Positions 14,592-58,500 of a stretch of 64,000 bases of DNA are shown here, piece after piece (position 1 is the stretch's first letter; the number at the start of each line of letters is the position of its first letter). Source of the DNA: Naegleria gruberi (lineage: Eukaryota); assembly GCA_000004985.1 (NCBI GenBank), contig GG738903.1, one strand, 5' to 3'. The position numbers were made by a program, and so were the translations under genes. The notes below the pieces were generated by a model. That model did no database searches and was not told the DNA's origin. It was given only the letters and a program-made list of their open reading frames with translations.

Positions 14592-15800
14592 TTATAATTG
14601 AGAGATGGCTGATTCTTGAGGTTTTGATAAGGAAAATATGCTAATTTTGTCCCAAAGTGGAATTTCAGTGAAAATTTCTGATTGGTCAACTAGGATTGGT
14701 ATTCCACTAGTGTTTGATTTGGTTTCACTATTCACATATTCTCTAAAGTCTTCCTTTCTAATAATCTGATCTGAATTCAACGCAGATTGAGAAATGTCAT
14801 CTCGTTTCTGAATAATTTCGACACTTGTCACAGATTGTGAGCTAGCGCTGTTAAATTCAATCAATACAAAGTCCAAAGGACCAAATGAAAATGTTACAAT
14901 AATGCAAAATAAGAGGAGGGATATTTTGTGGATGAATAAACAAATAGGATAAAGTGGAATATAGTAAGCGAAAGCAAATCCTCCAAAACTCATTGAAATT
15001 AAGTTGAGAAGAGCCATGTAGAGTTGACCAAATGTTAGTAGGAGCATTTTACGACATGATTTTCTTCTCTGATCGGTTACTGGAAACTTTTGATTGAGAA
15101 TTAGCTTTCTAATTAGTAAAACAACAATTACCATATTTAGTATGGGAAAGAAGATGGTTGCCAAACAAATGATTGAAATGTAAAATCCGAAAATAACCCT
15201 TGAAATGTTGGACATGATGGTAAAACCTTCAGAATCTATCCATTTCCTTTCGGTGTCATAATATTTGAAAAGACTATAGGTTATTACTAATGGTATTACA
15301 ATTACAATAATCAAGTTGACTATTACAATAAGTGTAATACTTGTTATTTTGATAAAATCTCTCAGCCTCTGATTACCCTTATTCATTCTCATCCACTCAT
15401 GTGATTTGTTAAAATACAATCCATACAAAATTTTTGTAACAACACCAAGGCAATTGGTGCACATTACAATTGACAAGAAAAAAAGCGACTGTTCCAATGA
15501 CGCGCTAATTACTATAAGAATTTCTCCAAAATCTACAAGAATTGAAGTACCAGTCACTATCCCCACTATCTGGAACACTTCTTCCAAAGCAAAAACCAAT
15601 AAAACCATTGAATATAGCAATTTCTTATTGTAAACCATTTTTTTGTAATTCATAATGAAAATGACAAACATAAATACAGAGCAACTGGAAAATATGATGA
15701 ATCCGATACCATTCAATGGTATTCCAATGCTTGATGTCACTATATCTTCCATAGGAATCGTTGAATTGCTGCTCAGAGTTGCAAAAACGTCATTTGCCAT
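14592..15800 (-). CDS. Lineage-specific 7TM receptor-like protein, array member 1
   Basis: 402 codons. Seven predicted hydrophobic helices with the N-terminus outside (N-glyco sequon NST). Family motifs are shared with 17028-18128, 18277-19394 and 21810-23207: WMR after TM3, TDQ[RK]RK.CRK in loop 3, FGQ in TM6, and SFGPLD after TM7. Confidence 0.75.
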   Translation of the reverse strand: MANDVFATLSSNSTIPMEDIVTSSIGIPLNGIGFIIFSSCSVFMFVIFIMNYKKMVYNKKLLYSMVLLVFALEEVFQIVGIVTGTSILVDFGEILIVISASLEQSLFFLSIVMCTNCLGVVTKILYGLYFNKSHEWMRMNKGNQRLRDFIKITSITLIVIVNLIIVIVIPLVITYSLFKYYDTERKWIDSEGFTIMSNISRVIFGFYISIICLATIFFPILNMVIVVLLIRKLILNQKFPVTDQRRKSCRKMLLLTFGQLYMALLNLISMSFGGFAFAYYIPLYPICLFIHKISLLLFCIIVTFSFGPLDFVLIEFNSASSQSVTSVEIIQKRDDISQSALNSDQIIRKEDFREYVNSETKSNTSGIPILVDQSEIFTEIPLWDKISIFSLSKPQESAISQL

Positions 15801-16312
15801 TTTTTTTTTGATATGACTTATCTCTGTAAATGCAGATACTCGTTCTGACCTGCCATGCAGACATTTGCTTTCTGGAATGGTGTTGTCATTTCTAATTTAA
15901 TAAAAGAGATACATCACCATTAAAAGAGGTACCATATGTCCTCAAAACAGTGCACATCAAATGGTTGAGTGAAGATTCTCAATAAAGACTTGACAGCCAG
16001 AGGTTTTGAATTCTCAGTTGACCAAAACATTCAATCAAAGAGATATGAAACACGAAAAAATGTCCGATGATGATGATAAGGATGATGATAAGGAGAATCG
16101 GGAGGGATGTAGTTTGTGTGTTAGTAGCAAAAAGAGGAGCAATACAAACACAGAGTCACCACCACCCACTGAATCAATGGAAAGGTTTACTCAAAGGTGA
16201 AACTAACTCTTGGAAGGTGTTTTGTAAAGAATCTGATGAGAATAGTATGGATTTTTTAATTTGTTATCTTGACTTTTTAACTTTGTAACTCCTTAATAGC
16301 AGACATGGTCTA

Positions 16313-16863
16313 GTGTTATTGGAAGGTCAACAAGTTTCGACTATTTTCGATTCAGCTGAGGTCATACGGCTGATTTGTGATTTATTAGTGCAACTTGCAA
16401 AATTAAAGAACCAGCGAATCATTCACATCGATTTAAAGCCAAATAATATAGTGAAATATGGTGGCCATTATTTTATAACTGATTACGGATTGTCAATTTG
16501 TTATCATTCATTGGATGGAGAGGTTTGCAGGGATGAGACTAATGAAATTATCAAATCAACAGCAGGCTCTCTTTTTTATGAATCACCTGAGAAGGAGGAG
16601 GGTTTATATCTCCGAAAAGTGATATATTCTCATTGGGATGCACTATTGATGAGATAATCAACTATTCCAAAGATAATAATTCTACTAATGGAAATCAATT
16701 TAATAACAATGTAATAGAACTTATTTCGCATATGAAAGACCCATCGATTAAGACTAGATGGTCAATTGAACAATGTGTTACACTCCTGAAATCTCAATAC
16801 AAAACAGAGCTAAAGACAAGTGTTGATCTTTTCTTGCAAAAGGAAAAGTATGTTAAACGATAA
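16313..16863 (+). pseudogene. Protein kinase catalytic-domain fragment (C-lobe only), frameshifted
   Basis: Subdomains VIb to XI are present: IIHIDLKPNNIV, FITDYGLS (DFG-like), GSLFYESPE (APE), then in another frame SDIFSLGCTIDEII (subdomain IX) and KDPSIKTRWSIEQCV. A one-nucleotide frame change lies between APE and subdomain IX (about 16605-16615). No Gly-loop, VAIK or Glu motifs are found in the 300 bp upstream; the reading frames 16006-16290 are unrelated low-complexity sequence. Confidence 0.55.
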
Positions 16864-17027
16864 CAATTGTTCGGACGATTCATTGTTCTATTAAGCACTA
16901 TAGGTTTCAATAAACCAAAAAATATGACTCAATTACTACTATTTAGATGGTGGTTTCAACATGTCTATATCTTGGAATCGTCATTTGTAGGTAGTAAAGT
17001 AATTGTCCCTATATATGGAGAGATAGG

Positions 17028-18128
17028 TTACACTTTATTTGGGTCAATTGTTTCGTTTGTTTCGTCTTTTTCCACCACAATTTCTGAAACTACCTTAGTA
17101 GAAACATTTGCTTTCACATCCCTTTCCTCAATCTCAATCTTATTCATTGATTTCCTTTTTACAATATTTGCCAATTGATGTCCAAATTCAGAAACATTAT
17201 CCAGTGGTCCAAAAGAAAAGTTTACAACAATACAAAAAATGAAAATTGATGATCTGTGAATTAAAATTGAAATTACACTGAGTGGCATGACAGCACTAGC
17301 AACTCCGGCAGTAATGACACCCACTGCATTCATCATAGACATTATAACTTGACCAAAGTTCAGAATTAGCAAGTTTCGGCAGACTTTCCTTTTTTGGTCG
17401 GTTATGACACTTTGATTTTGACCAAGTAGCTTTCTAATCAACAAGACGGTGATTGTAAAGTTGAGAATTGACAAATAAAAGAATGCTGCAGATATTACAC
17501 TTCCAAGAGTTGGATGAAATATTTTTGTAAACTGTTGTATAGTAAGAACTTGACTCAAGCTCAGAATTTTCCTTCCCGGATCAATAAAAGTCAATAATGA
17601 TGAGATAAACGCATAGGGCATGCTCAAAATCAACAGCAAATTGAAAAATGCAACAATTCCAATCGTTGAAATAAGCACCACTTTCTTACCAATCGAATGA
17701 AGTTTCGAATTTCTCATCCAAGTTTGATTTTCATTAAAATACACTGCATAAAGTACTTTCGTTATAACAGCCTGACAATCCAAACATAATGTCAAGCTCA
17801 ATAAATATCCAGCAAACTCAAATCCAAGAAAAGTTCCGGTCAACCCAAGTGGACCAACAAGCAGAGCTGAAGTATACCCAATTAAACCACATAATTGATA
17901 AATCTGCTGATTTAAACAGGTAAATATCAAGAGTAGGTACATTAATCTCTTGTTTTTCACCATTTTCTTCCATTTATAGATTAGTAGAATCGTCATGGAA
18001 AGTAGAAGAAACAAGAAGAATAAAGCTCCGAGAGAATTGAGAGTAATGATGGAAATAAAGGTGCCAAGATAATCTGATTTGGCTGTAGGTGAGGCAGATG
18101 TTGTAGAGTTGGTCAATGTCGAGTTCAT
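17028..18128 (-). CDS. Lineage-specific 7TM receptor-like protein, array member 2
   Basis: 366 codons, 7 TM. Same family motifs: WMRNSK, TDQKRKVCRNLLILNFGQ, NFSFGPLDNVSEFGHQLANIVKRK. Confidence 0.75.
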   Translation of the reverse strand: MNSTLTNSTTSASPTAKSDYLGTFISIITLNSLGALFFLFLLLSMTILLIYKWKKMVKNKRLMYLLLIFTCLNQQIYQLCGLIGYTSALLVGPLGLTGTFLGFEFAGYLLSLTLCLDCQAVITKVLYAVYFNENQTWMRNSKLHSIGKKVVLISTIGIVAFFNLLLILSMPYAFISSLLTFIDPGRKILSLSQVLTIQQFTKIFHPTLGSVISAAFFYLSILNFTITVLLIRKLLGQNQSVITDQKRKVCRNLLILNFGQVIMSMMNAVGVITAGVASAVMPLSVISILIHRSSIFIFCIVVNFSFGPLDNVSEFGHQLANIVKRKSMNKIEIEERDVKANVSTKVVSEIVVEKDETNETIDPNKV

Positions 18129-18276
18129 TCTTTTTTTTTGATGTCTTGAAATGTCAAACTGTCAAGAGATAATTTAGAGACGAATCTAAAAACAAATTGG
18201 GAGAGACATTGTCATTTTCAGTTTTTCATTAGTTTTCATTCAATTTTCGCGAAATAGATACATATTTGTAGAAATC

Positions 18277-19394
18277 TTAAACTTTATTTTCTGATTCCTT
18301 ATTCGAAAGCTCTGCCTCCTTATCCTTAATATGAACATCAGTCTTAATAGAAAGAGATCTCCTCTTCACAACATTTGCCAACTGCTCACCCAATTCTGAA
18401 ACATCATCCAATGGTCCAAAAGAAAAGTTTACAAAAATACAAAAAAGGAAAATCGAAATTCTATGAGAAGCCAATCCAATCACAAATAAAACAAGAGGAA
18501 TTACAGTAGCCACTCCCATTATTATAATTCCAATGATATTGAGCAGTGCCATTAACACTTGTCCAATGCTTAAAATTATTAACTTTCTGCAACATTTCCT
18601 TTTTTGGTCAGTTATGATACTTTGACAAAGATAGAGTTTTCTGATTAGTGAAATTGAGAGAGAAAGATTAAGCACGCAAAAATATAGGAAGGAAAGTGAA
18701 ATGAGAGCTCCCAAAACTGGATGGAAAATTCCAGTAAATTGGCGAAGTGAGCTACTTTGAGATGGAGTGAGAATATCAACTTTGACAATTATGGAAAATA
18801 TAAAGGCGAAGGGGATGCTTAGTACTAATTGTAAATTAAAGATTGTTACTATGAAATACTTGTAAACTTTACAAAATTTCTAAATATGGAATTTTCTTTT
18901 GAATTTCTCATCCATGTTTGTGATTCATTAAAATATACTCCAAAAAGAACTTTAGTAATAATCGCCTGACAATTCAATAATAATGTCAAGCTCAATAAAT
19001 ATCCAGCAAACTCAAATCCAAGAAAAGTTCCATTCAACTGAGGCGGACCTTTCAAGAATGAAGTTAAATATCCAACCAATCCACAAGTTTGATAAACAAA
19101 CTGATTCAAACATGTAATTATCAACGCTATCGACATGATTCTCTTATTTTTAACCATTCCTTTCCATTGAACTATCAAGAGAATGGTCATGAAAAGAACA
19201 AGAATGAAAAAGAGAAAACTTCCCACAGAATTCAAAGTAATGAGAGATATTACTTGGGCATTGTTAGTGGATGAAACTGTAGAGTTTTCTGTTGTGTTGG
19301 TAATGTTTGATATAATCGTCGAGTTGAATATCATCTTGTTTTTTTTTATATTTGAGTTTCGTATCTCTTTTGGATTCAATTGACCTATATACAA
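18277..19394 (-). pseudogene. 7TM receptor-like paralogue (array member 3) split by a 1-nt frameshift
   Basis: The N-terminal ORF 18849-19394 carries TM1-3 plus the WMRNSK motif. The C-terminal ORF 18277-18714 carries TDQKRKCCRK, FGQ and SFGPLD. The TM4 region between them reads through in a second frame (KYFIVTIFNLQLVLSIPFAF). One missing base near 18849-18852 (TTTCA-TAG versus expected TTTCAATAG) restores a continuous protein collinear with the paralogues. This is either a pseudogene or a draft-sequence error. Confidence 0.6.
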
Positions 19395-19539
19395 ATATCT
19401 CTAATTGGTTGAATATCAACAACAAGCGTGATCTTTCTTTACATGCAATGATGGAGTTGTTCTGTAATTCTAAATATCTTGTTCGGTCAATTTGTCAACC
19501 TGTCATATTAAATTATCTCTTTAAATCATAAACAATTTA

Positions 19540-19690
19540 ATCTTTTCAAATAGTTTTACATTCGGTATTAAAGTTTTCAATTCTTTCAATTCAACCTTAC
19601 TTTCGGCCACAATCTCAATCGAAGCAAATGTTTTAATTGTCTTGGCCAATTCAATGCCCAACTCTGAAACATTATCCAGAGGTCAATTGG
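19540..19690 (-). pseudogene. Relic 3-prime fragment of a further 7TM-family paralogue
   Basis: The minus strand encodes PLDNVSELGIELAKTIKTFASIEIVAESKVELKEL..., homologous to the post-TM7 tail (SFGPLDNVSEFGHQLANIVKRK) of the neighbours. The DNA is similar to 17161-17230 and 18361-18430. An in-frame TGA directly precedes it and a frame change lies upstream. It abuts the stop codon of the GT61 gene. Confidence 0.5.
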
Positions 19691-19707
19691 GTGTGATGCC
19701 AATAGAT

Positions 19708-21285
19708 TTACTTGGCTCTTGAATTTCTCAAAGTTGTTAAGAAAATACCAAATGTCTGAAGAAATGATTCTAGTTTGACAGTCAGATTATCTCCATTAAT
19801 AGCTTTCATATCCATGTTTGTCCATAGTGTATATTCATTCCCTTTCCATCTAGAATACTGTTCAAATGATCTCATACTTCGTGTCTTGTAAGTTTTCCAA
19901 ATTTCCAATAGTCCTGAAGTTCCATCTGGAAGAAACAAACTATTTGTCAATCCAAGATCATGATAACCAATAAGAAAATCAGCTTGATGAACTCGTTTCA
20001 CTTGCTCTACAAATGAAAACTTATTGAGATCAATTCGTTCTAAAGTAAAGGTATAACCATACTCTGGATGCTTTTTCAAATTGATTAAAACTTCATCTTC
20101 GTTTGTGATTTTTCCCGAGCTCACAAAAAGTCCTCTAATCATTTCATCTGATGATGAGAAAGAAGGTCTTCTCTTTTCTATTCCTAGAGTGCTTAGAATT
20201 CTATCTGAAAAGGCAGTTACGAGTCTAACTTTGGATTTGCATTGGCTTGGATCAAACTCTGAAAAATCTAACAAATTGGATTTGAGTTGAGTGGCCACTC
20301 CAGCATGTTGAAAGATGGCTCTTTCAAATCGAACTGTTTTTTCCTTGAAATAGGAAGCTTTTCTAGCAGGTCTCTTCAAGGAGAAGGTAGAATTCCACAA
20401 AAAGTCATATGGAGATTCGTAATGTTCATCCAACAATACAATTTGAACATTCTTACTATCCAATTTGAACATTTCAATCATTTGAAAAGTTGCAAAGAAA
20501 TCTGACAAGGCATGAAACAAATTGGCGTGATCATCTTGTTCTCTAGTAACGAAAATAGTCACTCCATCAATGTATTCAACCTTATCCTTCTTTTCCTTAA
20601 AATTTTCTTCCTTAAATGTTTTGAAACTTGAGAAAATTTCCTTTCCAAAGTGTTTTGAAAATTGAGAAAGATCCAAATTCACTGGATTTCTCTTACACTT
20701 GCCAAGAAGAGCTCCTGCCAAGTATGTGTAATAGGTTTTCCTTTTACAATTATAACCAGGTCTGTACTTTAAACATGGCACTCGTTTCAATTTTGAAAAA
20801 TCCATCACCAAATTACTTGATTCACAAACAGTGTGTGGAAATGTATCCGAATCAACATGTTTGTTATTGTTCTTGTAACATGTGAGAGTGGCTTGATTAG
20901 TTTCCATCTCCTTCTTCTTTTCCAAATCAATAAGACCAGAACTTGGAATGACATAATCGTCCTTTTCACACATTTCAATAGCTTGTTGCTTCCATGTTTG
21001 CAAAAGACCACATCCATACTCTCTTTCACACAATTCCTTCTGCTTTTCTTCTTCAGATAGGTTAACACTTGATGGTAGATTGTTCATTGAGATTGGTTTA
21101 GTACATATGAGTGGTGGAATCCTAGAAGGACGAAACTTTTCATCATCTGTTGAAACATCTTTCAAAGATGATGTTTCCTTAGAGTTTGTCGTTTCAATAG
21201 TTACTGAAAATTGCTCTCTCCTAGTTCCCTTCCCAACAGCAGTATTCACCAAACCAATAGTACGAGCATTCTCATGGATATTCAT
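19708..21285 (-). CDS. Glycosyltransferase family 61 (DUF563) EOGT/POMGNT2-like protein
   Basis: 525 codons. Conserved blocks HANLFHALSDFFATF and the C-terminal HQADFLIGYHDLGLTNSLFLPDGTSGLLEIW match the GT61 signature of O-GlcNAc and beta-1,4-GlcNAc/Xyl transferases. No N-terminal signal or TM in this ORF; an upstream exon is not excluded. Confidence 0.6.
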   Translation of the reverse strand: MNIHENARTIGLVNTAVGKGTRREQFSVTIETTNSKETSSLKDVSTDDEKFRPSRIPPLICTKPISMNNLPSSVNLSEEEKQKELCEREYGCGLLQTWKQQAIEMCEKDDYVIPSSGLIDLEKKKEMETNQATLTCYKNNNKHVDSDTFPHTVCESSNLVMDFSKLKRVPCLKYRPGYNCKRKTYYTYLAGALLGKCKRNPVNLDLSQFSKHFGKEIFSSFKTFKEENFKEKKDKVEYIDGVTIFVTREQDDHANLFHALSDFFATFQMIEMFKLDSKNVQIVLLDEHYESPYDFLWNSTFSLKRPARKASYFKEKTVRFERAIFQHAGVATQLKSNLLDFSEFDPSQCKSKVRLVTAFSDRILSTLGIEKRRPSFSSSDEMIRGLFVSSGKITNEDEVLINLKKHPEYGYTFTLERIDLNKFSFVEQVKRVHQADFLIGYHDLGLTNSLFLPDGTSGLLEIWKTYKTRSMRSFEQYSRWKGNEYTLWTNMDMKAINGDNLTVKLESFLQTFGIFLTTLRNSRAK

Positions 21286-21809
21286 GGATGGAAGTTCTTC
21301 ATGTTGTTCTTCTTGAAGAGTAGTAGTAGTAAGTAAATCCCCTCTACTCTACTCCATATATTATCCTCCGCACTAGAATCCACGAAAATATAATAAACAC
21401 CAAGCATATAACAAGATAAACCTTAATCAATCGTTTGATCTTGACTAAATTAAACAAACTCTTATTCATGATTGCTGCTAATTACACTAATATAACAAGT
21501 TACTCCTTCTTAATGTACAATGTGTGAGATTTAGCAATGAAATGCTCGCTTAGATGTTGTTGATTTTTTTTTCATTGAGTAAAATAATCAACGCTCTCTC
21601 ACGCTTAATTTGGCAACTGGTTGAATGACCCTAAAAGAATCTTTTTACCGACCCTTAGTTACTTGCTGAGAACATTGTTCGTGGAGCTGAGATTGGCGAG
21701 TATTAAGGCGCAACAACATTCATGTGGAAAGCTGATTGTGAGATTGCCAGTCAATGAGTTTTAAAGAGTGATGGTCCTGTTCTGGGTGTTGTTGATTGTT
21801 GTTGGGTTA

Positions 21810-23207
21810 TTAATCATTGAGAGGAATATCAACAAAGATATCTTCATATTGTATATTATCGATTTTCGTCGTAGTAGTTTGATGATGATCAGTAGCAGTA
21901 CTCATAGTGGTATTACTGTCATTACTTTTCTTACTGTCATTACAATTGGTTGGAGCACGCAACTGATCAGTTGCAATCGCCTCCTGAGGCCCAAAGGAGC
22001 TAGTAATGTTGAAGGGTGAGTAAATGGGCTGCTTGTTTGTTGCTGTATACTTGATCATCATCATGGAAGATATTTCGCTGGCTTTTCTAAATGCCTTTGA
22101 ATCAATATTGAAAGAGTTTGAAGTTTTTTGATTGGTGAGTTGAATTTCACTGGTTTGACATGAGGATTGAGTATTATCCCCATGTGGCTTCTTCTTACCT
22201 TCCAATTTTAATTCATAATGAAAGTAATCCATAGGTCCAAAACTGAAACTCACACAAATGGCAAATAACAGAAACACAAATCTATGAATGACACCAGTCA
22301 ATATGAACAAGTATGGATACCATATACCAATAGCTCCCAAAATAATTGAGATTGAATTAATAATTGCCATGTAGAATTGACCAAATGTTAAGAGTACCAA
22401 CTTTTTACATGCATTTCTGCGAGGGATTGGGACTGGCCTGTTTTGGAGAAGGTATCTTGAGAGTAGAAGAACCAAAGTTAAATTTAACACTCCTGTAATG
22501 ATGGCACATCCAGAGTTTACAAGACCAACAATGGCCACAGAAATAATTGACCAAATGCCAAGAATACTTCCAACTCGTGTATTTCCTCCATCCATATAAT
22601 ATACCATTGAACAGATCAGAGTGAATGGAACGAGAATAATGAATGCAATAGTCCAAATTAATGTCATTCCAATTGTGTAATATTTTGTAAATATTCTAAA
22701 CTTTTCATTGAATGAATAGCTTTCTGCTCCCTTCCTCATCCATGAATGAGATTGATGAAAGTAAATTCCATACAATACTTTTGAAACCATTGCTTGAAAA
22801 TAGGTACACATTACAACAGTTGACACGAGTCCACAATAATAAATAACGAAAAATAATTGACTCAAAAATTCCTGAATATGAGTCAGTGCTCCAACATCGT
22901 GAGCTATTCCAACTCCCTGTGAGAGAATTTGCAAGATGGCTGTAAATATTAAGGAAATGTAAAAGAATCTCTTGAAGGGAATCATTTCCTTCCATCGTTT
23001 GATGAGGAGAGTGGTCATTATAATGGTCAGTATCAGATAACTCAGTATTCCAATTCCATGAGTAGTAACAGAAATGTAGTATCGTTCTATTGCAGAAGTA
23101 AAAGTTGATGATGAAATATTGTATTGATGGAAAACTATTCCTGGATTCAATGAGCCATGCTGATGCTGGTCAACAATAGAAACAGTCATCTCACGATTAT
23201 TATTCAT
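21810..23207 (-). CDS. Lineage-specific 7TM receptor-like protein, array member 4, with long C-terminal tail
   Basis: 465 codons, 7 TM. Motifs WMRKGAESYSF, RRNACKKLVLLTFGQFYMAI, SFSFGPMDYF. Confidence 0.75.
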   Translation of the reverse strand: MNNNREMTVSIVDQHQHGSLNPGIVFHQYNISSSTFTSAIERYYISVTTHGIGILSYLILTIIMTTLLIKRWKEMIPFKRFFYISLIFTAILQILSQGVGIAHDVGALTHIQEFLSQLFFVIYYCGLVSTVVMCTYFQAMVSKVLYGIYFHQSHSWMRKGAESYSFNEKFRIFTKYYTIGMTLIWTIAFIILVPFTLICSMVYYMDGGNTRVGSILGIWSIISVAIVGLVNSGCAIITGVLNLTLVLLLSRYLLQNRPVPIPRRNACKKLVLLTFGQFYMAIINSISIILGAIGIWYPYLFILTGVIHRFVFLLFAICVSFSFGPMDYFHYELKLEGKKKPHGDNTQSSCQTSEIQLTNQKTSNSFNIDSKAFRKASEISSMMMIKYTATNKQPIYSPFNITSSFGPQEAIATDQLRAPTNCNDSKKSNDSNTTMSTATDHHQTTTTKIDNIQYEDIFVDIPLND

Positions 23208-39749: not shown

Positions 39750-42700
39750 TTAAAGTTCAAATCTTGCATTTGCTTTCATTCTTTGTTTGAGTTCGTTCAC
39801 AATAGCAAATGATTTGTACTCATCTGTGAAAATAAACCTAGAGAAGGTATCACTCAAGTTCATAACAATTTGTTGATAGAGAGAATCAGCACATCCATTA
39901 ATCATTCTTTGATAACCAACCCACATTACTTTGTTTTCTGTATTGTTTGCTTCTGCCTTCTTTTGTTCATCAACCAATTTTACACTTGATTGACTAAAGT
40001 CAAGTTTGATTGGCTGGGCATTCATGGATTGCATTGGAATTGACTTTGTCTTTTTAGTATTCAACTCTCCATACAGAATGCTTTCATAAACCTTATCCAC
40101 AAATGGCTTGTCTTTACCTTGCTCGACAACCATCTTGAATAAGAGTAAGAATGAATTTCTTGAATGTGATGGAATATTCACTTCCATAGTTGCTCCTAAT
40201 TTGATGTAAACCTCGTAGGTGCTGACACAGTACGAGTAGAGATGTTTCAAGAACTCTTCAGAATCGTCCATCTTATTCTCCAAAGTATCCATAAAGAGCT
40301 TGATATCAACATACATGTAAAGATTTTCCAAAGACCATTCCTTTTTACAGAACTCCTCAAATAGAATAATACCTTCAGAGTCTGACATTACTTGAGAGAG
40401 TTCCTCATTTTCTAATTCCACTGCTTCTTCTTTCTTATTGTCATTAGGTTTTTCAGTTGTAATCTTCTTGTAGAAATTATAAAGTGAAACCAAGGAAACA
40501 AATCCACCAAATGCTAAAATATAAAATACAATATAGACAGTTTCAATGGCAAATCTGGCTGAGTCAAAGACAAGCCCAATTGTGAATTGTTTAGTGTCAG
40601 AGCTGGAGAATTTTCCATCAATACTGGCAAGACCTAACGCTTGAGAAACAATGAGGAAGATAAAGAATGCCACAAAGAATATCATTTCCAAACGGTAGAA
40701 CAGTGGAGTATCTCTTCTAACAAACCATTTCCATACTGTGTGTAATACTGTTGATATTTGAATTGTTTCCTTTCCTTTACCTGATGAAGTATCAGCACTA
40801 ATTGGTTTAGTTTCTAATTTCTTTTGTCCTTTTCCTTCAGTAGTCGCTCCTTGATTTGTAAGTCTTGCAGAAATTGAAGACTCCTTTGAATCGTCATCAA
40901 ATTTGTAAGTCAAAATCATATCAGCAACGAAAATTAAAGCAACAATCAAGGCAAATGTCAAAATGACAACACAATAGGATACAGAAACAATAGTAGTGTA
41001 GTCATTAGCACCAATAACTCCAGTATACTTGAGAACAAACCACAAAGTCCAATAGAGAATGTTAGCTACAGCAAACAAACATAAAATAGCATAATAGATT
41101 GGATTTGAGGTCAATCTCTTGAATGTTGTAATCTTCTTTGCATAATTTGCTAAAAGATTACCTTCCTTATTTCTCATCACATTCATTAAATTGTAAAGAT
41201 GCTTCATGAATAAGTAACGAACCACTTGTAAGAGGAAGGCGAGAATGGCTGTTAAATTGAGAGTGTTGACAATAATTGAAGCTATACCACCAAACCAATT
41301 GACTACATTAGTGACATCAGTTTCATAAGCTGCCGATTTCAATGTATTACTCAATAATTCATTAACAAGAATGGAATTTCTAATAATTGAAATCAAAACA
41401 CATTCAGTCAACAGGGCAATCATACCCAAGTATGGAGCAACAAGTCTACTCTTAATAGGTTGCTTATTTTTAAATATTGTGAGCAATACCAAAACAATAA
41501 CAGCCACAATTCCATAAATTCCTCCAAAAACTATTTCAGCAATGTAATAACTGGCAACTTGTAATTTGTAGCTACTATTAACAGCACTAGTCAAATTGAA
41601 TTGCAAGAAAGTACCAAATCTTGTGGTATGGTCACACTTACAAACAACATCACCATTAACAAATGAAGAGACGTAACAACCATTTCCTAACCAAGCATTT
41701 TCGGTTTCATTCCAATATCTGCACTCCATTGTGGTATTGGTAATATTCTTATTTGATGTCAAGGTAGAAAGTGATGTCTTGTCGAGAGAGAACGTCAAAG
41801 CAATAGGATTTTTGAGATTTCTCAATTCAACTTGACTGTCTGACATACTGAGTGTGAATTCCGTTAGAGGTGCAAGAATATAACTCTTCTTTGAGAAGGA
41901 ATCAACCTTTGAGTTGATAGAGTAGGCTATGAATGATAAGCCAAAGGATCCAGTTGTTTCATTTGAAATTTGTTGGAAAATAGAATTCATATCCAAACTA
42001 ACTTGATTAATACCAGTTGAAAGAGTTTGATTGGTAGTTGTTGGAGTTGACTTATCCAGAGAGAATGCAGAAATTGTAATATTGACCATATCAGTTGCAA
42101 ATGAAAGAGTTGGAACTGATCCAGTTGTAACCAATGTTGGAATTTCACCAATGAGAGCTGTATCAGCTGTACTTTCTGCAGTTGATTCCACCTTTTCAGA
42201 GTTTAGTCCAGTTTCCAATAAATTTGAAACAAGTTTTAGTGTTGAAAATGTGACAGTTGAATCCAAAATCTTTGTCTTGACAAATGAATACAATGCCTTT
42301 TCTTCTAAATATTGAGCTGTAACATTTGAAACGAAATTGGCTAACTTGGTGTTTACCTTGTCGACCATTTCAGAGCTCATCTTTGAAGGATCTGAAGTAA
42401 TGGTAAGGAAAGAATCCAATGCACTTTGTGGATTCTTAATATCAAATTGAACATTGTCAATTAATTGATTCAAAACGGCTTGTGATTCATTGGTTGAAAT
42501 TGATCGAGTAGAAATGGATGTATCATAAGAGTAAAGAACTGATTGCTCAGAAGAGCTAGCACTACTCAATAAATTCAATAATTCCGAAACTGTTCCATTG
42601 TAAGGCGAAACTGTGACTGTTGAAGAATATGTCCACTCTTCATTACCATACTTATCGGCAACAAAGAGAATAACAGTGACAGTCTCATCGTTGGTGCTTC

Positions 42701-45700
42701 TACTCTTCTTTGTTTGAGTCAAATAAGGAAGAATGGAACTGAAAGTGGAATTAGTAGTGTATGAAGTGATTCTGACAGGTTTTTGTTGTGTAGAATCATA
42801 AACACCTAAAGCATACGTGAGTGGTTTGAGAGAATCGGCAGCTGACCATTCCTGAACTGTGAAAACGAAATTTTCAATAAGTGCCATACCTTGAGTTGGC
42901 ATTATAGTGACGAGTTTTGTTGTATTCTTTGGAGCTGATGCTGGTGGGATGATTGGATAAGTTGAGGTGATTGAAAAACTGGAATTACTGTCCTGATTTC
43001 TAAATTCCAAAATAATTTCCAAAATTGATTCTTCAGCAGTGTTCTGTGTGAGATTTGTAATTTGCGATTTGAAATTGGAAACAGAATAGGAAAGATATGG
43101 AGAGCAAGTAAATCCATCAAGAGCAGAGTTTGGAACAATGGTTACATTTCCAGAAATGTCTAACATGTTAAGAGTTTGATTGAATCTAACGACAAGTGAG
43201 TATTCAACTTTCTTTGCTGCACAACCACCATTGTTACATCCCAAGAATCTTACCAAAGCACTTTGATTCAAAGAAACTGTCGGTACAACAATATCCAAAC
43301 TAGTTGGTAAGGTATTGGTTGTGTAAGCTTCCTTCACACCAACAACAGATACAGAGTATGATTCTGGCACTTGAATAATGGTAATATTAAAACTAAATGT
43401 GTTTGATTGTCTGTAGAAGAAAACACCATCCTCTGAGGTTACAGCCATAGCCGACAATTCAAGATTGAAAGTTCCTGTTGGTAATACATAAACATTGAAT
43501 AGGGCAATTGATTGAGTAATATTTGAAAGATAATCACTTCCATTATTTCCTTGACAATTAGTACATGTCCAATTGTAAATCACATTTTCCAACAAGTATG
43601 GTTGTGGAAGAATCTCACCTAGAACAGCATGAAGTGACAAACTAGAAATATTGTTGTAGACACTATAACTCTCTACCGTGTAACCTCCAATTTTAAGTGA
43701 GACTGTAATTGGAGATTGTGTGATATTACAATTCTTACCAAACCATGGATAACTGCATTCACAAGTATTAGGACTATTACAGATACCATTTTGTGAGCAA
43801 ACATCCAAAGAAGTTGCATTCACACCAAAGCAAATTGGTGTTTGACAATTTTCTCCAGTGAAACCATTTGTGCATTCGCAATTATTTGGCGATTTGCATT
43901 GACCATGTCCAGAACAAACATTCAATGTATCATTAAAGTACAAAGAATAGCATTGGTACAGAGTACATTCCTCTCCAAAGTAACCTTGTACTTGACAAGA
44001 GCAAGTATTTTCAGAATTACATTGACCTTTTCCATTACAAACTTGTGGATCGGTTGAATTCTTTCCGAAACACGTTGAGAATTGACAATTATTACCAGAG
44101 TATGTTGAAGTACAATTACAGAAATCGACACCAATGCAGCTTCCTCTTTGGTTACAAACATTTGAAGAGTTGGCAAGAATATTTTCACACTTGAAGATTT
44201 CACAATTTGAACCGCCATATCCATAGCCACATGAACACAAATCAGTGTCAATACATTGACCAAAACCTGAACAAACTGATGGCATAGTTGAATTGATTCC
44301 GTAACAAATTGGGTATTGGCACTTGTCTCCAGTGTATCCTGTAACACAAGAACACTTATCAGGAGAAATACATGAACCCTTTCCACTACAAATAAACTTG
44401 GAATCTTGTGAAGTATTATTTCCAAAGCAAGAAACATATTGACAGTTATTTCCACTATATCCTAAATTACATGAACAATTATTTGGTAAAATACATTTAC
44501 CAAATCCAGAGCACACAGTATTATTGAGATAGTTCAATCCATAACAATTGTAATCTGTGCAATTCTTTCCATAGTAATTATAATCTGTACAGTAACAAAC
44601 GTCTGGAGAAGTACAAATACCTTTTGCATTACATTGTGTTGGATCATCAAAGGTTCTATTATAACAAATTGGTTTGTTACATTGTCCACCAGACGAAAAA
44701 CCAGATAGACATTGGCATGTATCTGGTGCAACGCAGCTACCATTATTGGAACAGACATTTGGATCTAGAGCCGAGAGTGAGTAACAAACTGGAATGTCAC
44801 ATCTGGAACCTGTGTATTGAGAGGTACAATTACATAAATTGGCACCAGTACAATTTCCCTGAGAGCTGCAATATGCAACACCATCACATGAGTAGGCAGA
44901 ACATTCTGCATTGCCTTTCCATCCAGTGTTGCACTGACAAGTATTATTGGAAATACACAAGCCATTTCCATGACAGTTGTCAGAGGCATCACATGTGAAA
45001 GTATTACAATTTGAACCTGTCCAGCCAGATCTACATTGGCATGTGTTATTTCCAATACATTGACCATTTTGAGAACAAGAATTAACTCCGTCACAACTAA
45101 TAACTGAACAATTGGAACTTCCTTTCCATCCACTTTGACATTGGCAAGTATTGTTTGAAATACATAAACCATGATCGTAACAATTAAGCACACCATCGCA
45201 TGTGAAAATGTCACATTTTGGTCCAGACCATCCAGATCTACATTGACATGTGTTATTTCCAATACATACTCCATTTTGAGAACAGCCACTAACACCATCA
45301 CATGAGAATTGGGAACATTCTGCATTGCCTTTCCAGCCACTATAACATTGGCAAGTGTTGTTGGAAATACACAAGCCATTACTGTTACAATTTGAAGAGG
45401 CATCACAAGTGAAAACATTGCAACTTGCTCCTGTCCAACCAGACCTACATTCGCATGTGTTATTTCCAATGCATTGACCATTTTGAGAGCATGAATTAAC
45501 ACCATCACAAGTAATTGCCGAACAATTCGAGTTACCTTTCCATCCACTAACACAGTTGCATGTATTAGCGCCTGTACACGTACCATGTCCTGAGCAGAAA
45601 TCTCTATCCTTACAAGTAAAAGTATTACAATTAGCTTCTGTCCATCCACTGTTACAATTACAAGTATTATTTGAAATACAAGTACCGTGTCCATTACAAG

Positions 45701-51635: not shown

Positions 51636-53213
51636 ATGAAATTCAAGAGGAATAAAACGTTAGACGAAACCGTTGTGTCTCCTTCCTCGTCAACACCAAC
51701 CAATACATCATCTTCTTCTACATCCTCTTCAAAGAAAAGACCTAGCAGTGTGAATAGTGACTTTGATGTTTCGAATTATGCCATTGTTTTTGAAGAAATG
51801 ATGGATTCGAAAGAAACTCGTGATTTATTCTATGAATATTTGCAGCTTAATCGTTCGGTGGAATCTCTCATGTTCATGAATCAAGTTGAAGAATATCGTG
51901 CGGAATATAACAAGAAATTCGAGAATGTTATTTGTGGTGAAAATGTTGATAAAAAGCAAGTTCATACCAAGATTGTGGAAATCTATTCGAAAGCAAGGGG
52001 TATTCTTGATCAGTTTGTGTTTCAAGGAGGTCAATTCGAGTTGAATTTGGCCTTTGCTAACAAGGATAAGATTCGAGAACTTTGGGAAACAAAAGTTTGT
52101 GAAAGTTTTGAAAAATTGGACAAGGAAAGATTGGAGGTTGAGAAACTTTCGAAAATCATTTCCATGTTGGAAACTGATACATTGTTTGGACTTGCAATGT
52201 TTAGTGTGAATTTGGATTTGAGGTTTGATCAATTTCCAAGATTTTCCAGATCTGAAATGTTAATGAAATTCCTCGAGTCGAAAGGAGAACGATTCACCAG
52301 AGCCATTGCAACAGATATTTCTAAAGGTTTCCAATTAGATATTCGATTCAAACCTCATCATTTACAAGATTCAACCATTGATGACAAGTTTATTTACTTT
52401 GGTTTCACCCTCGCTGAGGACACACCTGATTGGGAATTGACCTATTCAGATAAGAAGAATACCTGTGAATTGTACCAATCCAAAACTTCCTATGTATTCG
52501 ATACTGAAACATTGAAAGGTTTGAGATTGAGTAAGGTTGTCACTCGTGTACCATATCCAATTGAAGAAGTCTGGGCATGCTTCTGGAATATAGATCTCCA
52601 TAAGGTGATAGATCCTATGGGAGGTGCAGAAACTTTCAAATTAATGGATTACATTTCACCTGTATCTGAAGCTGAAGGAAAACCAAATTATTCGAATCAA
52701 CAAGTTTCATGTTGTACGAAATTCCCAATTCCATTCATGAAGAAGAGAGATTTACCAATCACCATGACAGCAATCAGAGATCCAGAACTTAACATGATCA
52801 TGGTTGCAGGACACACTTGTTCACTAATCGAAACTAGAGAAGATTGCATCCCAGCTCAACTCATGTTTTACTACATGTTCTATAAGGTCAGTGATAATGA
52901 AACTCGTTTCATTCACACTGTGTATACTGATTTGAAGTTGCCTCTAAATCCTTCCTTAATGCTCAAAGTAATCATGTTGAAGAGAGCTAAGGATTATAAG
53001 AAAGGTTTCGAGCAACAAATTACTCGCCTTCGTAAGGAAAAAAGTACAAAGGATGGTCTGATGGATACTTCCCAATTTGTGGATGCTATGAAATATAATT
53101 TGGCCATTGAGGAGAATACTAAATTATATCCTAATAGATCGTGGTATAATGAATGGCTTCAGTTGAGAGAGAAACGACTCAGCTTGAACATGTCAGATGC
53201 AAAATCAAATTAA
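51636..53213 (+). CDS. RGS-domain protein with C-terminal START/SRPBCC-like domain
   Basis: 525 codons. RGS signature FYEYLQLNRSVESLMFMNQVEEYR...EIYSKARGILDQF. The C-terminal ~220 residues have START-like spacing (WELTYSDKKNTCELYQS...PYPIEEVWACFWNIDLHKVIDP...DLPITMTAIRD). The START call is tentative. Confidence 0.65.
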   Translation: MKFKRNKTLDETVVSPSSSTPTNTSSSSTSSSKKRPSSVNSDFDVSNYAIVFEEMMDSKETRDLFYEYLQLNRSVESLMFMNQVEEYRAEYNKKFENVICGENVDKKQVHTKIVEIYSKARGILDQFVFQGGQFELNLAFANKDKIRELWETKVCESFEKLDKERLEVEKLSKIISMLETDTLFGLAMFSVNLDLRFDQFPRFSRSEMLMKFLESKGERFTRAIATDISKGFQLDIRFKPHHLQDSTIDDKFIYFGFTLAEDTPDWELTYSDKKNTCELYQSKTSYVFDTETLKGLRLSKVVTRVPYPIEEVWACFWNIDLHKVIDPMGGAETFKLMDYISPVSEAEGKPNYSNQQVSCCTKFPIPFMKKRDLPITMTAIRDPELNMIMVAGHTCSLIETREDCIPAQLMFYYMFYKVSDNETRFIHTVYTDLKLPLNPSLMLKVIMLKRAKDYKKGFEQQITRLRKEKSTKDGLMDTSQFVDAMKYNLAIEENTKLYPNRSWYNEWLQLREKRLSLNMSDAKSN

Positions 53214-55583: not shown

Positions 55584-58500
55584 ATGTCTCTTGACTACTG
55601 TATGGTCTCTAACAGAGTAAAACTCTGTAAGGTTACTGTTTGTATGCTTGTGACCCTAGTTATCTTGTCCATTTTGGCTTCTAATACTAATGCATTTGAA
55701 TGTACAGGTACAGATTCTTGTAATGGTAGAGGTTTTTGTTCAACCACAGGTGATTCTTGTCAATGTTTGACAACTCTCAACTATGATTTGAATAATAATG
55801 CCAATACTATGGTTGCTAACTCTTCCCTTTCATTCTATACTCTAGGTTCAAGTGATGGAGAAGAACCATCCTATACTTTCATTTCTGGTAATACTACCTA
55901 TGTTTCCAAAATTACTTTTGATGGTACTAATGTAAATGTTATTGTAAAGAATCAAAGTATTTTGACTCAAGATGTTGGTAGTGGATATCAATACCTCACT
56001 CTCAAAATTGATGGTAGTTTAGGAATGTGTCAAAGTGATAAGATTGATTGTGTTGCTCTCACTAGTAACGGTGGTGTTAATTCTGCTGCTTGTAATGGAA
56101 CTGGTCCTTTCTATTTCTTCTTTAGAAAGGATGGTTTAATCTCTGTTTTAGATAGTACTGGTGCAGAATGTTGGAACAGTAATGTTTTCGATTCATCAGT
56201 TAAATATCAAGATTTTGCTGGTACTAGTTGTCAAGATTCATTGTATTATTGTAATGGTATTGTAAATACTGATGCTAATGTTTGTAGTGGTAAGGGAAAG
56301 TGTGGTTCTACTGGTTGTACTTGTAACAATACAACTCAATGGACTGGATCTGATTGCTCAACCCCTATTTGTTATGGTTTACCTTCTACTGATGCTAACG
56401 TTTGTAAAGGAAGAGGTTCATGTGCTGCTCCAGATTCTTGTTCATGCACTATTGGTCAAGCTCCATATTGTAATGTAACTTGTGGAAATGTTTCTGAAAG
56501 TTCTCCTAGTGTCTGTAATGGATTTGGTCAATGTATTTCCCAAGATACTTGTCAATGTACAAATCCAAATTATTCTGGTAAGAATTGTGATGTTTATAGT
56601 TGGGTATGTCAAGATGTCAATTCTTGTAACTCTAAAGGTTTCTGTGCCAATAGTACTTTGTGTGATTGTTCCTATGATTACATGAATATTGTTAATGGTG
56701 GTGCTACTCTCTATCGTGATGTTGTTACTAATGCTTTTGCTAATTCTCCAAATTTCAATTGTTCCCTTCGTCAAGTTGCTACTGTTGTAAATAATCAAAC
56801 TGTATATCCATTGGTAGGAATTTGTGGTGGTGTCACTATTTGGACTTATCCAATTACTACTTTTACTAGTTTACTTGAATATCTCACAATTACAGCAAAT
56901 GGTCACGTTCTTGTTGAAGGTAACACTCAACTCTTAGATTTCAATTCTAATATGGCAATTAATACAACCACTCCTGTTTACAGTATGGGAAATGATGGTG
57001 TATTCAGAATTTACTCATCCACTGGTACAAATACCTATTCTCTTGGTACTTCAAATGGTCTTACAGGTTGGACTCTTGCTTATGGTCAACAATGTCAATC
57101 TTCACACAGTTTTTGTAATGGTCTCCTCGATACTGATCCAAATGTTTGTAGTAGACGTGGTTCATGTGTTATGGGAAGTTATTGTGATTGTAAGCATGGT
57201 TTTGGTGGTACTAATTGTGAAAAGGAAGCCACTTGTGATGGAATTCCTCAATCATCCAACTTAACTTGTTCAGGACATGGTAATTGCACTTTCCAGGGAT
57301 GTACTTGTACTGCTCCATACTATGGAAGTAATTGTTCTCAAAGATATTATACCTGTTATGGTATTGCTTCAACAAATCCATCTACTTGTAGCGCTAATGG
57401 TAAATGTGTTGAAGACAATACTTGCGTTTGTAATAATGGTTTCAGTGGATCAATGTGTCAAAGTCTTTCATCTAACAATGGAACTAACAATGGTACAATC
57501 AACAATAATGGTACAATTAATAACAATGGTACTGTTAATAATAATGGAACTATTAACAATAATGGTACAACCAATAATAATGGTACTGCTAACAATGGTA
57601 CTGTTAATAACAATGGAACAATTAACAACAATAATGGTACATCTAATAATGGTACTTCCAATAATAATGGAACCGTTGTTGATCCATGTAAGAATATCAC
57701 TTGTCAATATGGTATTTGCTCTGCAGGCAAGTGTATCTGTAGTTATAGTACCGATTATTTCTATTATGGACCTACTTGTTCAAAATACAGTGCAGTTATG
57801 TGTCAAAGCTTAATGCAAGCTTCCACAGCTCCATTCTGTGCCTCAGTTGGTGTAACTCCTAATATTATGAATTTTGTTTCTGAACTTGGTTATAATCTTC
57901 TTGCTAAATATAATGGTGCGCTTAATGAAAGCGTTGTCAGTGCTCAAGCTGTTTCAGAACTAGATAATGCTGCCTTGTTAATGTCTCAAGCATTCGTCAA
58001 AGCTTGTACCAATGATGCTTGCCGTCTTGCCTATAAGAGATATGCTTGCTATTCACAATTCCCAATTTGTTCTGCAAATACTTACATGCCAGTTTGTAAT
58101 GGTGCTTGTACTACTGCCCTTAGTCCATATCCACTTCCAAATGTTAATTTGACAAGTTTGTGTGGATCTCTTCCATCTAAATATTGTACCAATGATATTA
58201 ACTATGTAGATGCCAAGTGTGTTGGTGTAACTTGTTCTGGTCGTGGATCTTGTTCAAATGGAACTTGTAATTGTGCAAGTGGCTATACTGGTGCTAATTG
58301 TGAACAAGTTATCATTCCATACTCTCTCACTCCTGCCTGTGTAAATGTAATGTCCTCATCTTCAACTCCTTTCTGTGCCTCTGCTGGAGTTGTTCTCCCA
58401 TTGTATAATGTTAATTTAATGAATGGTGCTAAGAGTGAAAGCCAAGCTGCTAGTATGCTTGCTGCTAGTTTAGCTCAATTAGATGCCCAAGCTAATGCTA

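What the first reader, a model, noticed from the sequence alone, without database searches (positions are those of the whole stretch)
14592..23207. Tandem array of a lineage-specific 7TM receptor-like family with pseudogenised members
Four paralogues sit on the same strand and share a 7TM topology and idiosyncratic motifs: WMR after TM3, a basic TDQ[RK]RK.CRK loop before TM6, FGQ in TM6, and SFGPLD after TM7. One copy carries a 1-nt frameshift and another survives only as a 150-bp relic. I cannot place the family in the known dictyostelid GPCR classes (cAR/crl, frizzled-like, GABA-B-like, secretin-like). The motifs do not match the cAMP-receptor sequence I compared. A birth-and-death tandem array is typical of chemoreceptor-like families and could be an undescribed sensory receptor family.
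Basis: partly seen in the sequence, partly recalled or inferred. Interest (0 to 1): 0.7.

Follow-up and report, generated by a model that had tools for sequence, protein, structure and literature searches.

The report
Orphan 7TM receptor-like genes in Naegleria
A cluster of four related genes in the amoeba Naegleria gruberi encodes an uncharacterised family of seven-helix membrane proteins. They have the shape of G-protein-coupled receptors, occur only in Naegleria and its close relative Willaertia, and are candidates for this organism's largely unidentified signal receptors.

Summary
Four paralogues lie on the minus strand: A 14592-15800, B 17028-18128, C 18277-19334 and D 21810-23207. C has a 1-nt deletion at 18852-18855. 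A small C-terminal relic (43-80 nt, not 150) lies at 19607-19684.

The interpretation needs three corrections.
- The window is Naegleria gruberi (Heterolobosea), not a dictyostelid.
- The array is interrupted by a kinase-like pseudogene and a GT61 glycosyltransferase gene.
- The C frameshift is absent from a ~98%-identical strain, where the ORF is intact across the covered 3' 586 nt including that site and under purifying selection. It is therefore either very recent or a reference error.

The family is small, about 3-8 genes per genome, and is not a large chemoreceptor repertoire. G-protein coupling is inferred, not shown. I rate it a new sequence family within a known fold, of moderate interest.

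The parts
14592..15800 (-). Paralogue A, intact 402-aa 7TM ORF. The reference model NAEGRDRAFT_73279 covers only its last 207 aa.
   Evidence: ORF. P0004 is the C-terminal 207 aa. The related-strain orthologue on L011 is intact at 402 aa, with omega 0.21.
17028..18128 (-). Paralogue B, intact 366-aa 7TM ORF. The reference model NAEGRDRAFT_73280 covers only its last 104 aa. This copy was used for structure prediction.
18277..19334 (-). Paralogue C, 351 codons after repair, 58% identical to B. One frameshift and no other defect. Unannotated in the reference.
   Evidence: The related-strain contig L008 has an open frame across the site. Omega is 0.04 over 191 codons.
18852..18855 (-). Frameshift site in C. 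The window reads ATT TC- ATA; the related strain reads ATT TCC ATA (Ser). This is a 1-nt deletion in the reference.
19607..19684 (-). Relic of the C-terminal tail of a B/C-like copy (PLDNVSELG...). It lies directly downstream of the GT61 stop codon.
   Evidence: tblastn E 0.02-0.03. blastn: 43 nt at 79% identity, E 3.9e-4 against the whole window. Also present in the related strain L010.
19708..21285 (-). Unrelated GT61 glycosyltransferase gene (525 aa) that interrupts the array between the relic/C and D.
   Evidence: Pfam PF04577, E 6.5e-15. Annotated as an N. gruberi protein, P0034.
21810..23207 (-). Paralogue D, intact 465-aa 7TM ORF with a long C-terminal tail. The reference model NAEGRDRAFT_73282 lacks the first 63 aa, including TM1.
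   Evidence: The related-strain orthologue on L010 is 469 aa, with omega 0.27.
16313..16863 (+). Unrelated kinase-like fragment between A and B. Not part of the family; probably a pseudogene.
   Evidence: Pfam Pkinase E 2.9e-7, below the gathering score. The C-lobe continues in another frame after a G-run, and no N-lobe is seen.

Best explanation
The four genes belong to an undescribed protein family found only in vahlkampfiid amoebae (Naegleria and Willaertia).

Shown here:
- The proteins have seven TM helices.
- The short N-terminus carries N-glycosylation sequons.
- The three odd-numbered loops are rich in Lys/Arg, which predicts an N-out/C-in topology.
- The predicted fold superposes best on solved G-protein-coupled receptors.
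- All four window copies are under purifying selection between strains.
- The window copies are part of an N. gruberi-lineage expansion produced by local duplication, with decay products nearby.

Inferred:
- They act as plasma-membrane receptors.
- The variable N-terminus, extracellular loops and outer helix halves would bind diverse ligands.
- The strongly conserved cytoplasmic face would engage one shared intracellular transducer. That face comprises ICL1 W-K-x-M-V-x-N-K-R, the TM3-ICL2 motif T-K-[VI]-L-Y-x-x-Y-F-N-x-x-Q-x-W-M-R, TM5 N...L-x-R-K-L, the pre-TM6 Q-[RK]-R-K-x-C-R, and the TM7 exit F-x-F-G-P-L-D.
- The most likely transducer is one of Naegleria's many heterotrimeric G-alpha subunits. 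Some of these are slow nucleotide exchangers that need a receptor-type exchange factor, and only one homology-detectable GPCR candidate has been reported.
For: - Family reality and restriction: 22 hits in an exhaustive HMM search of 1.84e9 representative proteins. All named ones are N. gruberi, N. fowleri, N. lovaniensis or Willaertia magna.
- Topology: K+R is about 15-20 in ICL1-3 against 1-5 in ECL1-3 in all 15 members tested. Every full-length member has at least one NxS/T sequon before TM1.
- Conservation asymmetry: mean BLOSUM score is 1.60 on the cytoplasmic side and 0.50 on the extracellular side, Mann-Whitney p = 3e-9. Of 28 positions at least 75% conserved, 27 are cytoplasmic or mid-membrane. 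Among paralogues, dN of the outer half is about twice that of the inner half.
- Constraint between strains: omega is 0.21 (A), 0.16 (B), 0.04 (C, 3' part) and 0.27 (D).
- Need for such receptors: PMC9283941 reports many N. fowleri G-alpha subunits, including slow exchangers, but a single cAR-like candidate GPCR. It also mentions unlisted 7TM proteins without similarity to known receptors.
Against: - There is no sequence-level link to any GPCR family. Pfam finds nothing consistent at E<=10 for 22 members, and PDB profile searches are empty.
- The class A microswitch motifs (DRY, CWxP, NPxxY) are absent.
- There are no expression, localisation, ligand or coupling data.
- The family is small (3-8 per genome), unlike typical chemoreceptor repertoires.
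- Topology and structure are predictions.
- The between-strain substitution counts are small (8-18 per gene).
Confidence: 0.55

Rival explanations
1. A seven-helix membrane protein that is not a signalling receptor, for example a trafficking or cargo-type 7TM protein (GOST/TMEM87-like), a PAQR-like hydrolase, or a transporter or channel. In this reading the conserved cytoplasmic motifs serve sorting or catalysis rather than transducer coupling.
Against: - With the better model, the top-ranked hits are GPCRs (plus de novo GPCR-like designs) and AdipoR2 drops to rank 48.
- The predicted N-out topology is opposite to that of PAQRs.
- There is no Pfam hit to HlyIII/PAQR, Lung_7-TM_R, GOST or any transporter family.
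- There is no GOLD or other luminal domain; the N-terminus is only 26-110 aa.
- No conserved His/Asp metal site appears among the conserved positions.
Confidence: 0.25
2. A true cell-surface receptor with a GPCR fold that signals without heterotrimeric G proteins. It might act through its C-terminal tail (the conserved F-[TV]-[ED]-I-P-L motif in the A/D subgroup, or the terminal -K-V/-N-V in others), through arrestin-like proteins, or as a partner of other membrane proteins.
For: Conserved short tail motifs and hydrophobic C-termini. Arrestin-like genes are reported to be expressed in N. fowleri. Canonical G-protein microswitch motifs are absent.
Against: The strongest conservation is in ICL2, the TM5/TM6 cytoplasmic ends and the TM7 exit. 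These are the surfaces that contact G-alpha in solved GPCR complexes (established structural knowledge). The tails, by contrast, are poorly conserved across subfamilies.
Confidence: 0.15
3. The cluster is a decaying set of non-functional ORFs, and the family has no present function in N. gruberi.
For: One copy is frameshifted in the reference. B is frameshifted in the related strain. There is a relic and a degenerate copy (L009). The reference annotation has only truncated models.
Against: - A, B and D are complete ORFs of 366-465 codons in a 33%-GC genome.
- Between-strain omega is 0.04-0.27 for all four.
- Orthologues are retained in synteny in N. fowleri and N. lovaniensis, and the family reaches Willaertia.
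Confidence: 0.04

Closest known systems
Class D fungal pheromone receptor Ste2 (PDB 7ad3)
   Different: Sequence identity is only 7-8%. There is no Pfam STE2 hit. The Ste2 signature residues are not recognisable. The organisms belong to different eukaryotic supergroups. The similarity is at fold level only.
Class A (rhodopsin-like) GPCRs, e.g. GPR55, P2Y1, PAR2
   Different: There is no 7tm_1 Pfam hit. D/ERY, CWxP and NPxxY are absent. In their place the family has T-K-[VI]-L-Y...W-M-R, F-G-Q and F-x-F-G-P-L-D.
Dictyostelium cAR/crl family (class E), including the single cAR-like candidate GPCR reported for N. fowleri (NF0059410)
   Same: Both are protist 7TM receptors of similar size. It is the only homology-detectable GPCR type reported for Naegleria.
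   Different: No Dicty_CAR Pfam match for any of 22 members at E<=10. The family here is a separate, previously unlisted group.
Naegleria 7TM-RGS proteins (28 reported in N. fowleri; one is encoded in this window at 39750-47882)
   Same: They come from the same organisms, have seven TM helices, and are proposed to sense extracellular cues for G-protein pathways.
   Different: The family here has no RGS domain and no EGF or lectin ectodomain. hhalign of the family profile against the 7TM region of the window's own 7TM-RGS protein gives probability 0.2%. No 7TM-RGS protein appears among the 22 HMM hits.
Lineage-specific chemoreceptor arrays (e.g. nematode serpentine receptors, vertebrate OR/TAS2R clusters)
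   Same: Same-strand local duplicates and lineage-specific clades. Frameshifted or degenerate copies are present. The extracellular side evolves faster than the cytoplasmic side.
   Different: There are only about 3-8 genes per genome. Most members outside N. gruberi are single-copy syntenic orthologues. No chemosensory role is known.

Membership tests
GPCR superfamily (fold level) | Seven transmembrane helices in one bundle | tested here: met
   Hydropathy. AlphaFold gives seven long helices, with pLDDT >85-95 across most of the TM core.
GPCR superfamily (fold level) | N-terminus outside, C-terminus inside | tested here: met
   This is a prediction only. K+R is 15-20 in the odd loops against 1-5 in the even loops in 15 of 15 members. 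NxS/T sequons precede TM1 in all full-length members.
GPCR superfamily (fold level) | Structural superposition on solved GPCRs better than on other 7TM folds | tested here: inconclusive
GPCR superfamily (function) | Ligand-dependent activation of a heterotrimeric G protein | not testable with these tools
   Needs biochemistry or cell assays.
Any curated GPCR sequence family in Pfam (7tm_1, 7tm_2, 7tm_3, Frizzled, Dicty_CAR, STE2, STE3, Git3 and others) | Profile-HMM match at or near the gathering score | tested here: not met
   No such family matched any of the 22 members at E<=10, apart from one TAS2R match at E 0.87 in a single member. PDB sequence-profile searches were empty at E<=10.
Class A rhodopsin-like GPCR | D/ERY at the TM3 end, CWxP in TM6, NPxxY in TM7 | tested here: not met
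   The alignments show T-K-[VI]-L-Y at the TM3 end, F-G-Q in TM6 and F-x-F-G-P-L-D after TM7.
Microbial (type I) rhodopsin | Retinal-binding lysine in TM7 | tested here: not met
   TM7 has no conserved Lys. Its conserved positions are H/Q291, R292, F298 and F304.
PAQR / adiponectin-receptor hydrolases | N-in topology and a conserved His/Asp zinc site | tested here: not met
   The predicted topology is N-out. There is no HlyIII Pfam hit. No conserved His triad is among the conserved positions.
7TM-RGS proteins | C-terminal RGS domain after the 7TM region | tested here: not met
   No RGS hit in any member. hhalign against a local 7TM-RGS 7TM region gives probability 0.2%.
Birth-and-death tandem gene array | Same-strand local paralogues, lineage-specific duplication and decayed copies | tested here: met
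   - Four copies and a relic lie within 8.6 kb.
- The window copies fall in an N. gruberi-only clade.
- N. lovaniensis has a tandem pair where N. fowleri has a single gene.
- A degenerate copy is found on L009.
- Caveats: two unrelated genes interrupt the array, and the C frameshift may be a sequence error.

The most novel reading that the evidence does not exclude
This is a new, Heterolobosea-specific class of G-protein-coupled receptors that evolved, or diverged beyond recognition, independently of the GRAFS, cAR and fungal classes. On this reading it supplies the missing exchange factors for the slow-exchanging G-alpha subunits of Naegleria, including the pathogen N. fowleri, which has three members.
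Probability: 0.35. Interest if true: 0.7.

Novelty: new variant of a known kind. Interest (0 to 1): 0.5.

Why it matters
Naegleria has an unusually large G-protein toolkit: many G-alpha subunits, more than 100 RGS proteins and 28 7TM-RGS proteins. Only one homology-detectable GPCR candidate has been reported (PMC9283941). What activates its slow-exchanging G-alpha subunits is an open question.

A conserved, constrained 7TM family with a GPCR-like fold and a conserved cytoplasmic face gives concrete candidates to test. Three of them are in the brain-eating pathogen N. fowleri, where surface receptors would be potential drug targets.

The work also corrects the reference annotation. Three of the four genes have truncated models and one has none. 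It further shows that the apparent pseudogene may be intact.

Tried and rejected
- Dictyostelid origin is rejected. Copy D is an annotated N. gruberi protein and every named relative is heterolobosean.
- An intron as the explanation for the C split is rejected. The two frames abut within one codon and there are no splice sites.
- Pfam scans of all members at E<=10 gave nothing consistent.
- PDB sequence-profile searches with 5- and 22-sequence profiles found nothing.
- The word-indexed protein search performed poorly on these TM proteins, giving 1 and 3 hits. The exhaustive HMM search was needed.
- The AFDB Foldseek library was unavailable.
- Relationship to 7TM-RGS proteins: hhalign was negative.
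- Synteny of the window locus in N. fowleri and N. lovaniensis could not be tested. Using the GT61 neighbour as a query, only N. gruberi and a Willaertia homologue on a different contig were retrieved.
- N. gruberi scaffolds carrying NAEGRDRAFT_77904 and _65787 were not retrievable. Whether those copies are also clustered is therefore unknown.
- A literature search for the locus tags found no paper.
- Positive selection on the extracellular side: omega is below 1 everywhere, but dS among paralogues is saturated, so the test is uninformative.
Full report
**1. What is in the sequence**

Between 14592 and 23207 the minus strand carries four related ORFs.
- A: 14592-15800, 402 aa.
- B: 17028-18128, 366 aa.
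- D: 21810-23207, 465 aa.
- C: split into 18849-19394 and 18277-18714.

Evidence that they are paralogues:
- tblastn of each against the whole window recovers the other three at E 1e-17 to 1e-95, and nothing else in the 64 kb apart from a short match at 19632-19682.
- In the alignment, B and C are 58% identical; A and D are 29-33% identical to B.
W-M-R is invariant. TDQ[KR]RK.CR[KN] occurs in A, B and C, with IPRRNACKK in D. G-Q of FGQ is invariant. FSFGP[LM]D is invariant.
- Hydropathy gives seven hydrophobic segments.

The split in C is a true 1-nt frameshift. B residues 3-156 and 158-345 align to 19310-18855 and 18852-18298 in different frames. The DNA reads ACA AGT ATT TC|A TAG TAA, which leaves no room for an intron.

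The relic is real but small.
- 43 nt at 19642-19684 are 79% identical to the GPLDNVSEFGHQLA region of B.
- blastn E is 3.9e-4 against the whole window.
- It reads in frame as PLDNVSELG.
- A collinear 14-mer lies at 19607-19620.
- It begins 24 nt after the stop of the neighbouring gene.

The array is not contiguous. A kinase-like fragment on the plus strand (16313-16863) separates A from B. A GT61 glycosyltransferase gene (19708-21285, Pfam E 6.5e-15) separates the relic and C from D.

**2. Whose genome it is**

Copy D is 'predicted protein [Naegleria gruberi]' (NAEGRDRAFT_73282) on a 304,373-bp scaffold. The window is therefore heterolobosean, not dictyostelid.

The reference gene models are poor.
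- D lacks its first 63 residues, including TM1.
- A is modelled as its last 207 aa (NAEGRDRAFT_73279).
- B is modelled as its last 104 aa (NAEGRDRAFT_73280).
- C has no model.

**3. How big and how old the family is**

A profile of the window copies was searched with HMMER against 1.84 billion representative proteins. It found only 22 hits at E<=1e-3. Every hit that carries a name is from one of four species:
- N. gruberi: also NAEGRDRAFT_77904, _65787 and _63475.
- N. fowleri: FDP41_013725, FDP41_006273 and an unannotated gene, P0020.
- N. lovaniensis: C9374_013568 and C9374_014057.
- Willaertia magna: two genes.

The remaining hits are unnamed environmental contigs. No paper mentions the locus tags.

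A neighbour-joining tree places A, B, C and D in one clade with the other N. gruberi genes 65787 and 77904 and one environmental sequence. That clade has no N. fowleri or N. lovaniensis member. The other clades are conserved orthologue groups:
- P0026 (N. lovaniensis) and P0020 (N. fowleri) sit in the same gene neighbourhood.
- P0007 and P0025 do as well.
- At that second locus N. lovaniensis has a tandem pair (L004 8195-9721 and 10001-11218), where N. fowleri has a single gene.

The family therefore dates at least to the Naegleria-Willaertia ancestor. It is small, about 3-8 genes per genome. These counts are lower bounds, because representatives are clustered at 50% identity. The family has expanded locally in the N. 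gruberi lineage.

**4. Is copy C a pseudogene?**

The ENA metagenome assembly ERZ929261 contains a Naegleria that is 96.6-97.9% identical to the window. Four of its contigs cover the cluster:
- L010: SPRY gene, D, GT61 gene and the relic.
- L011: A.
- L012: B.
- L008: the 3' 586 nt of C plus the start of B.

In L008 the frameshift site reads ATT TCC ATA. The frame is open from the contig start to the normal stop codon. Across these 191 codons the two strains differ by 7 synonymous changes and 1 non-synonymous change, giving omega 0.04.

C was therefore a constrained gene until very recently. The missing C in the reference is either a strain-specific lesion or a sequencing error.

Conversely, in L012 copy B lacks one A of an A5 run (window ~17957) and is frameshifted there.

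The other copies are also constrained between strains: omega is 0.21 for A, 0.16 for B and 0.27 for D. The counts are small, 8-18 substitutions per gene.

The same metagenome also holds a degenerate B-like copy (L009). It is 81% identical at the nucleotide level, has an internal deletion and broken frames, and lies next to a P450 gene. Turnover in the family is real, but 'pseudogenised member' overstates what is known for C.

**5. What kind of protein it is**

No sequence-level match was found.
- No Pfam family matches any of the 22 members consistently at E<=10.
- Profile searches of all PDB sequences are empty.

AlphaFold2 was run on B. With the 5-sequence alignment it gave pLDDT 70. With a 22-sequence alignment it gave pLDDT 79.5 and pTM 0.75, with pLDDT above 90 across most of the TM helices.

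Fold searches against solved structures:
- AdipoR2 fell from 18.1 to 15.6 with the better model. TMEM87A scored 16.3 (first model) and a microbial rhodopsin 15.5 (better model).
- Foldseek against the PDB returned almost only GPCRs (one microbial rhodopsin among the top 50), weakly (E ~1e-3, TM-score 0.4-0.5).

Topology:
- In all 15 non-redundant members, the loops after TM1, TM3 and TM5 hold about 15-20 Lys/Arg. The alternate loops hold 1-5.
- Every full-length member has at least one NxS/T sequon in the short segment before TM1.
- Both point to N-out/C-in, the GPCR orientation and the opposite of PAQRs.

There is no conserved TM7 lysine (which argues against a rhodopsin), no His/Asp metal site and no RGS domain. 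hhalign against the 7TM region of the 7TM-RGS protein encoded in this same window is negative, with probability 0.2%.

**6. The informative pattern**

Conservation is strongly one-sided.
- Mean pairwise BLOSUM score is 1.60 for cytoplasmic loops plus inner helix halves. It is 0.50 for the N-terminus, extracellular loops and outer halves (Mann-Whitney p = 3e-9).
- Of the 28 positions conserved in at least 75% of members, 27 are cytoplasmic or mid-membrane. They include W137 (18/18), N223 (19/19), L230 (19/19), Q260 (18/19) and G-P-L-D after TM7.
- Among the window paralogues, dN in the outer half is about twice that of the inner half. Omega stays below 1, and dS is saturated.

In solved GPCR-G protein complexes, ICL2 and the cytoplasmic ends of TM3, TM5, TM6 and TM7/H8 form the transducer interface (established structural knowledge). 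A family that keeps exactly this face while varying the outside behaves like receptors that share one intracellular partner but differ in ligand.

**7. Mechanism proposed, and its status**

Shown:
- A constrained, lineage-restricted family with seven TM helices.
- A GPCR-like predicted fold and predicted N-out topology.
- A conserved cytoplasmic face.
- Local duplication and decay.

Inferred:
- Plasma-membrane receptors whose conserved inner face engages a common transducer.
- That transducer is most plausibly a heterotrimeric G protein.

The context comes from PMC9283941. N. fowleri has many G-alpha subunits, some with slow nucleotide exchange that presumably need a GPCR-type exchange factor. 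Only one cAR-like candidate GPCR was found by homology. [quoted passage not shown] The present family may be among those.

Rivals:
- A non-signalling 7TM protein (trafficking, hydrolase or transport).
- A receptor that signals through its tail or through arrestin-like proteins.
- A decaying, functionless cluster. This is contradicted by the constraint and the retention of orthologues.

**8. Comparison and novelty**

At fold level this is a GPCR-like protein. At sequence level it belongs to no described class. It fails the motif and profile tests for class A, cAR, Ste2 and the other Pfam families.

It is best described as a new sequence family within a known architecture ('new variant of a known kind'). 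Lineage-specific orphan 7TM families are not rare in protists, the family is small, and function is untested, so overall interest is moderate.

The interest lies in three points. It offers concrete GPCR candidates for Naegleria, including the pathogen. It corrects the annotation of four genes. It shows reciprocal frameshifts of B and C in two near-identical strains.

**9. Verdict**

- Observation: confirmed, with a smaller relic and an interrupted array.
- Interpretation: partly supported. The receptor-like lineage-specific family and its duplication and decay hold. The dictyostelid origin is wrong. It is not a large chemoreceptor repertoire. The pseudogene status of C is doubtful.

Noticed in passing
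window 39750-47882 (-): A 2710-aa ORF with dozens of teneurin-type EGF repeats, about seven hydrophobic segments at residues ~2117-2467, and a weak RGS-domain match (whole-protein E 4.7e-5, no stretch significant on its own) at 2495-2577. This is the adhesion-GPCR-like '7TM-RGS' architecture described for N. fowleri in PMC9283941. It lies about 17 kb from the 7TM cluster. Its 7TM region is not detectably related to the family studied here (hhalign probability 0.2%).
   Followed up: partly
window 51636-53213 (+); 55584-60323 (+); 60431-62524 (+): A 525-aa RGS-domain protein. Next to it is a 1579-aa EGF-repeat ORF, followed directly by a 697-aa ORF with a REJ domain (E 3e-47). The last two may be one gene split by an intron or a frameshift. 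The window is rich in G-protein-signalling and adhesion-receptor-like genes.
   Followed up: no
window 16313-16863 (+): A kinase-like remnant between copies A and B. Subdomains VIb-VII (HIDLKPNN, TDYGLS) are in one frame. Subdomain IX (SDIFSLGCTI) is in another frame after a G-run. No recognisable N-lobe lies upstream. The region is only about 90% identical, with many indels, to the related strain, against 97-98% for the flanking 7TM genes. It is probably a pseudogene.
   Followed up: partly
L012 (ENA ERZ929261), equivalent to window ~17957: In the ~97%-identical strain, copy B has lost one A from the run GTGAAAAACAAG and is frameshifted after TM1, while copy C is intact at its own site (the covered 3' part). 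The reference shows the reverse pattern. This could be reciprocal loss of redundant paralogues or two assembly errors.
   Followed up: partly
L009 3134-3795 (ENA ERZ929261): A degenerate B-like copy, 81-86% identical at the nucleotide level, with an internal deletion of roughly TM4-TM6 and broken frames. It lies downstream of a cytochrome P450 gene, so it is a dispersed pseudogene at a different locus.
   Followed up: partly
L004 8195-9721 and 10001-11218 (N. lovaniensis) vs L005 10001-11548 (N. fowleri): N. lovaniensis has a same-strand tandem pair of family members. The syntenic N. fowleri locus, with the same GT_PLOD and C2 neighbours, has one gene.
   Followed up: partly
C-termini of family members (window 17031-17042, 18280-18291, and relatives): Many members end in a hydrophobic residue, commonly -N-K-V, -K-N-V, -K-K-V, -S-S-V, -S-I-V or -V-V. 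The A/D subgroup instead carries F-[TV]-[ED]-I-P-L near the end. These could be sorting or scaffold-binding signals.
   Followed up: no
window 14592-15800, 17028-18128, 18277-19334, 21810-23207: The N. gruberi reference gene models for these loci are truncated (207, 104 and 402 aa instead of 402, 366 and 465 aa) or absent (C). Proteome-based surveys of Naegleria 7TM proteins would therefore miss or mis-score them.
   Followed up: yes
window 19708-21285 (-) vs L010 3643-5403: The GT61 (EOGT-like) gene is called as 525 aa here but 586 aa in the related strain. Its stop codon abuts the 7TM relic, which suggests that its arrival or rearrangement truncated a former family copy. The only other homologue retrieved was in Willaertia (41% identity).
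   Followed up: no
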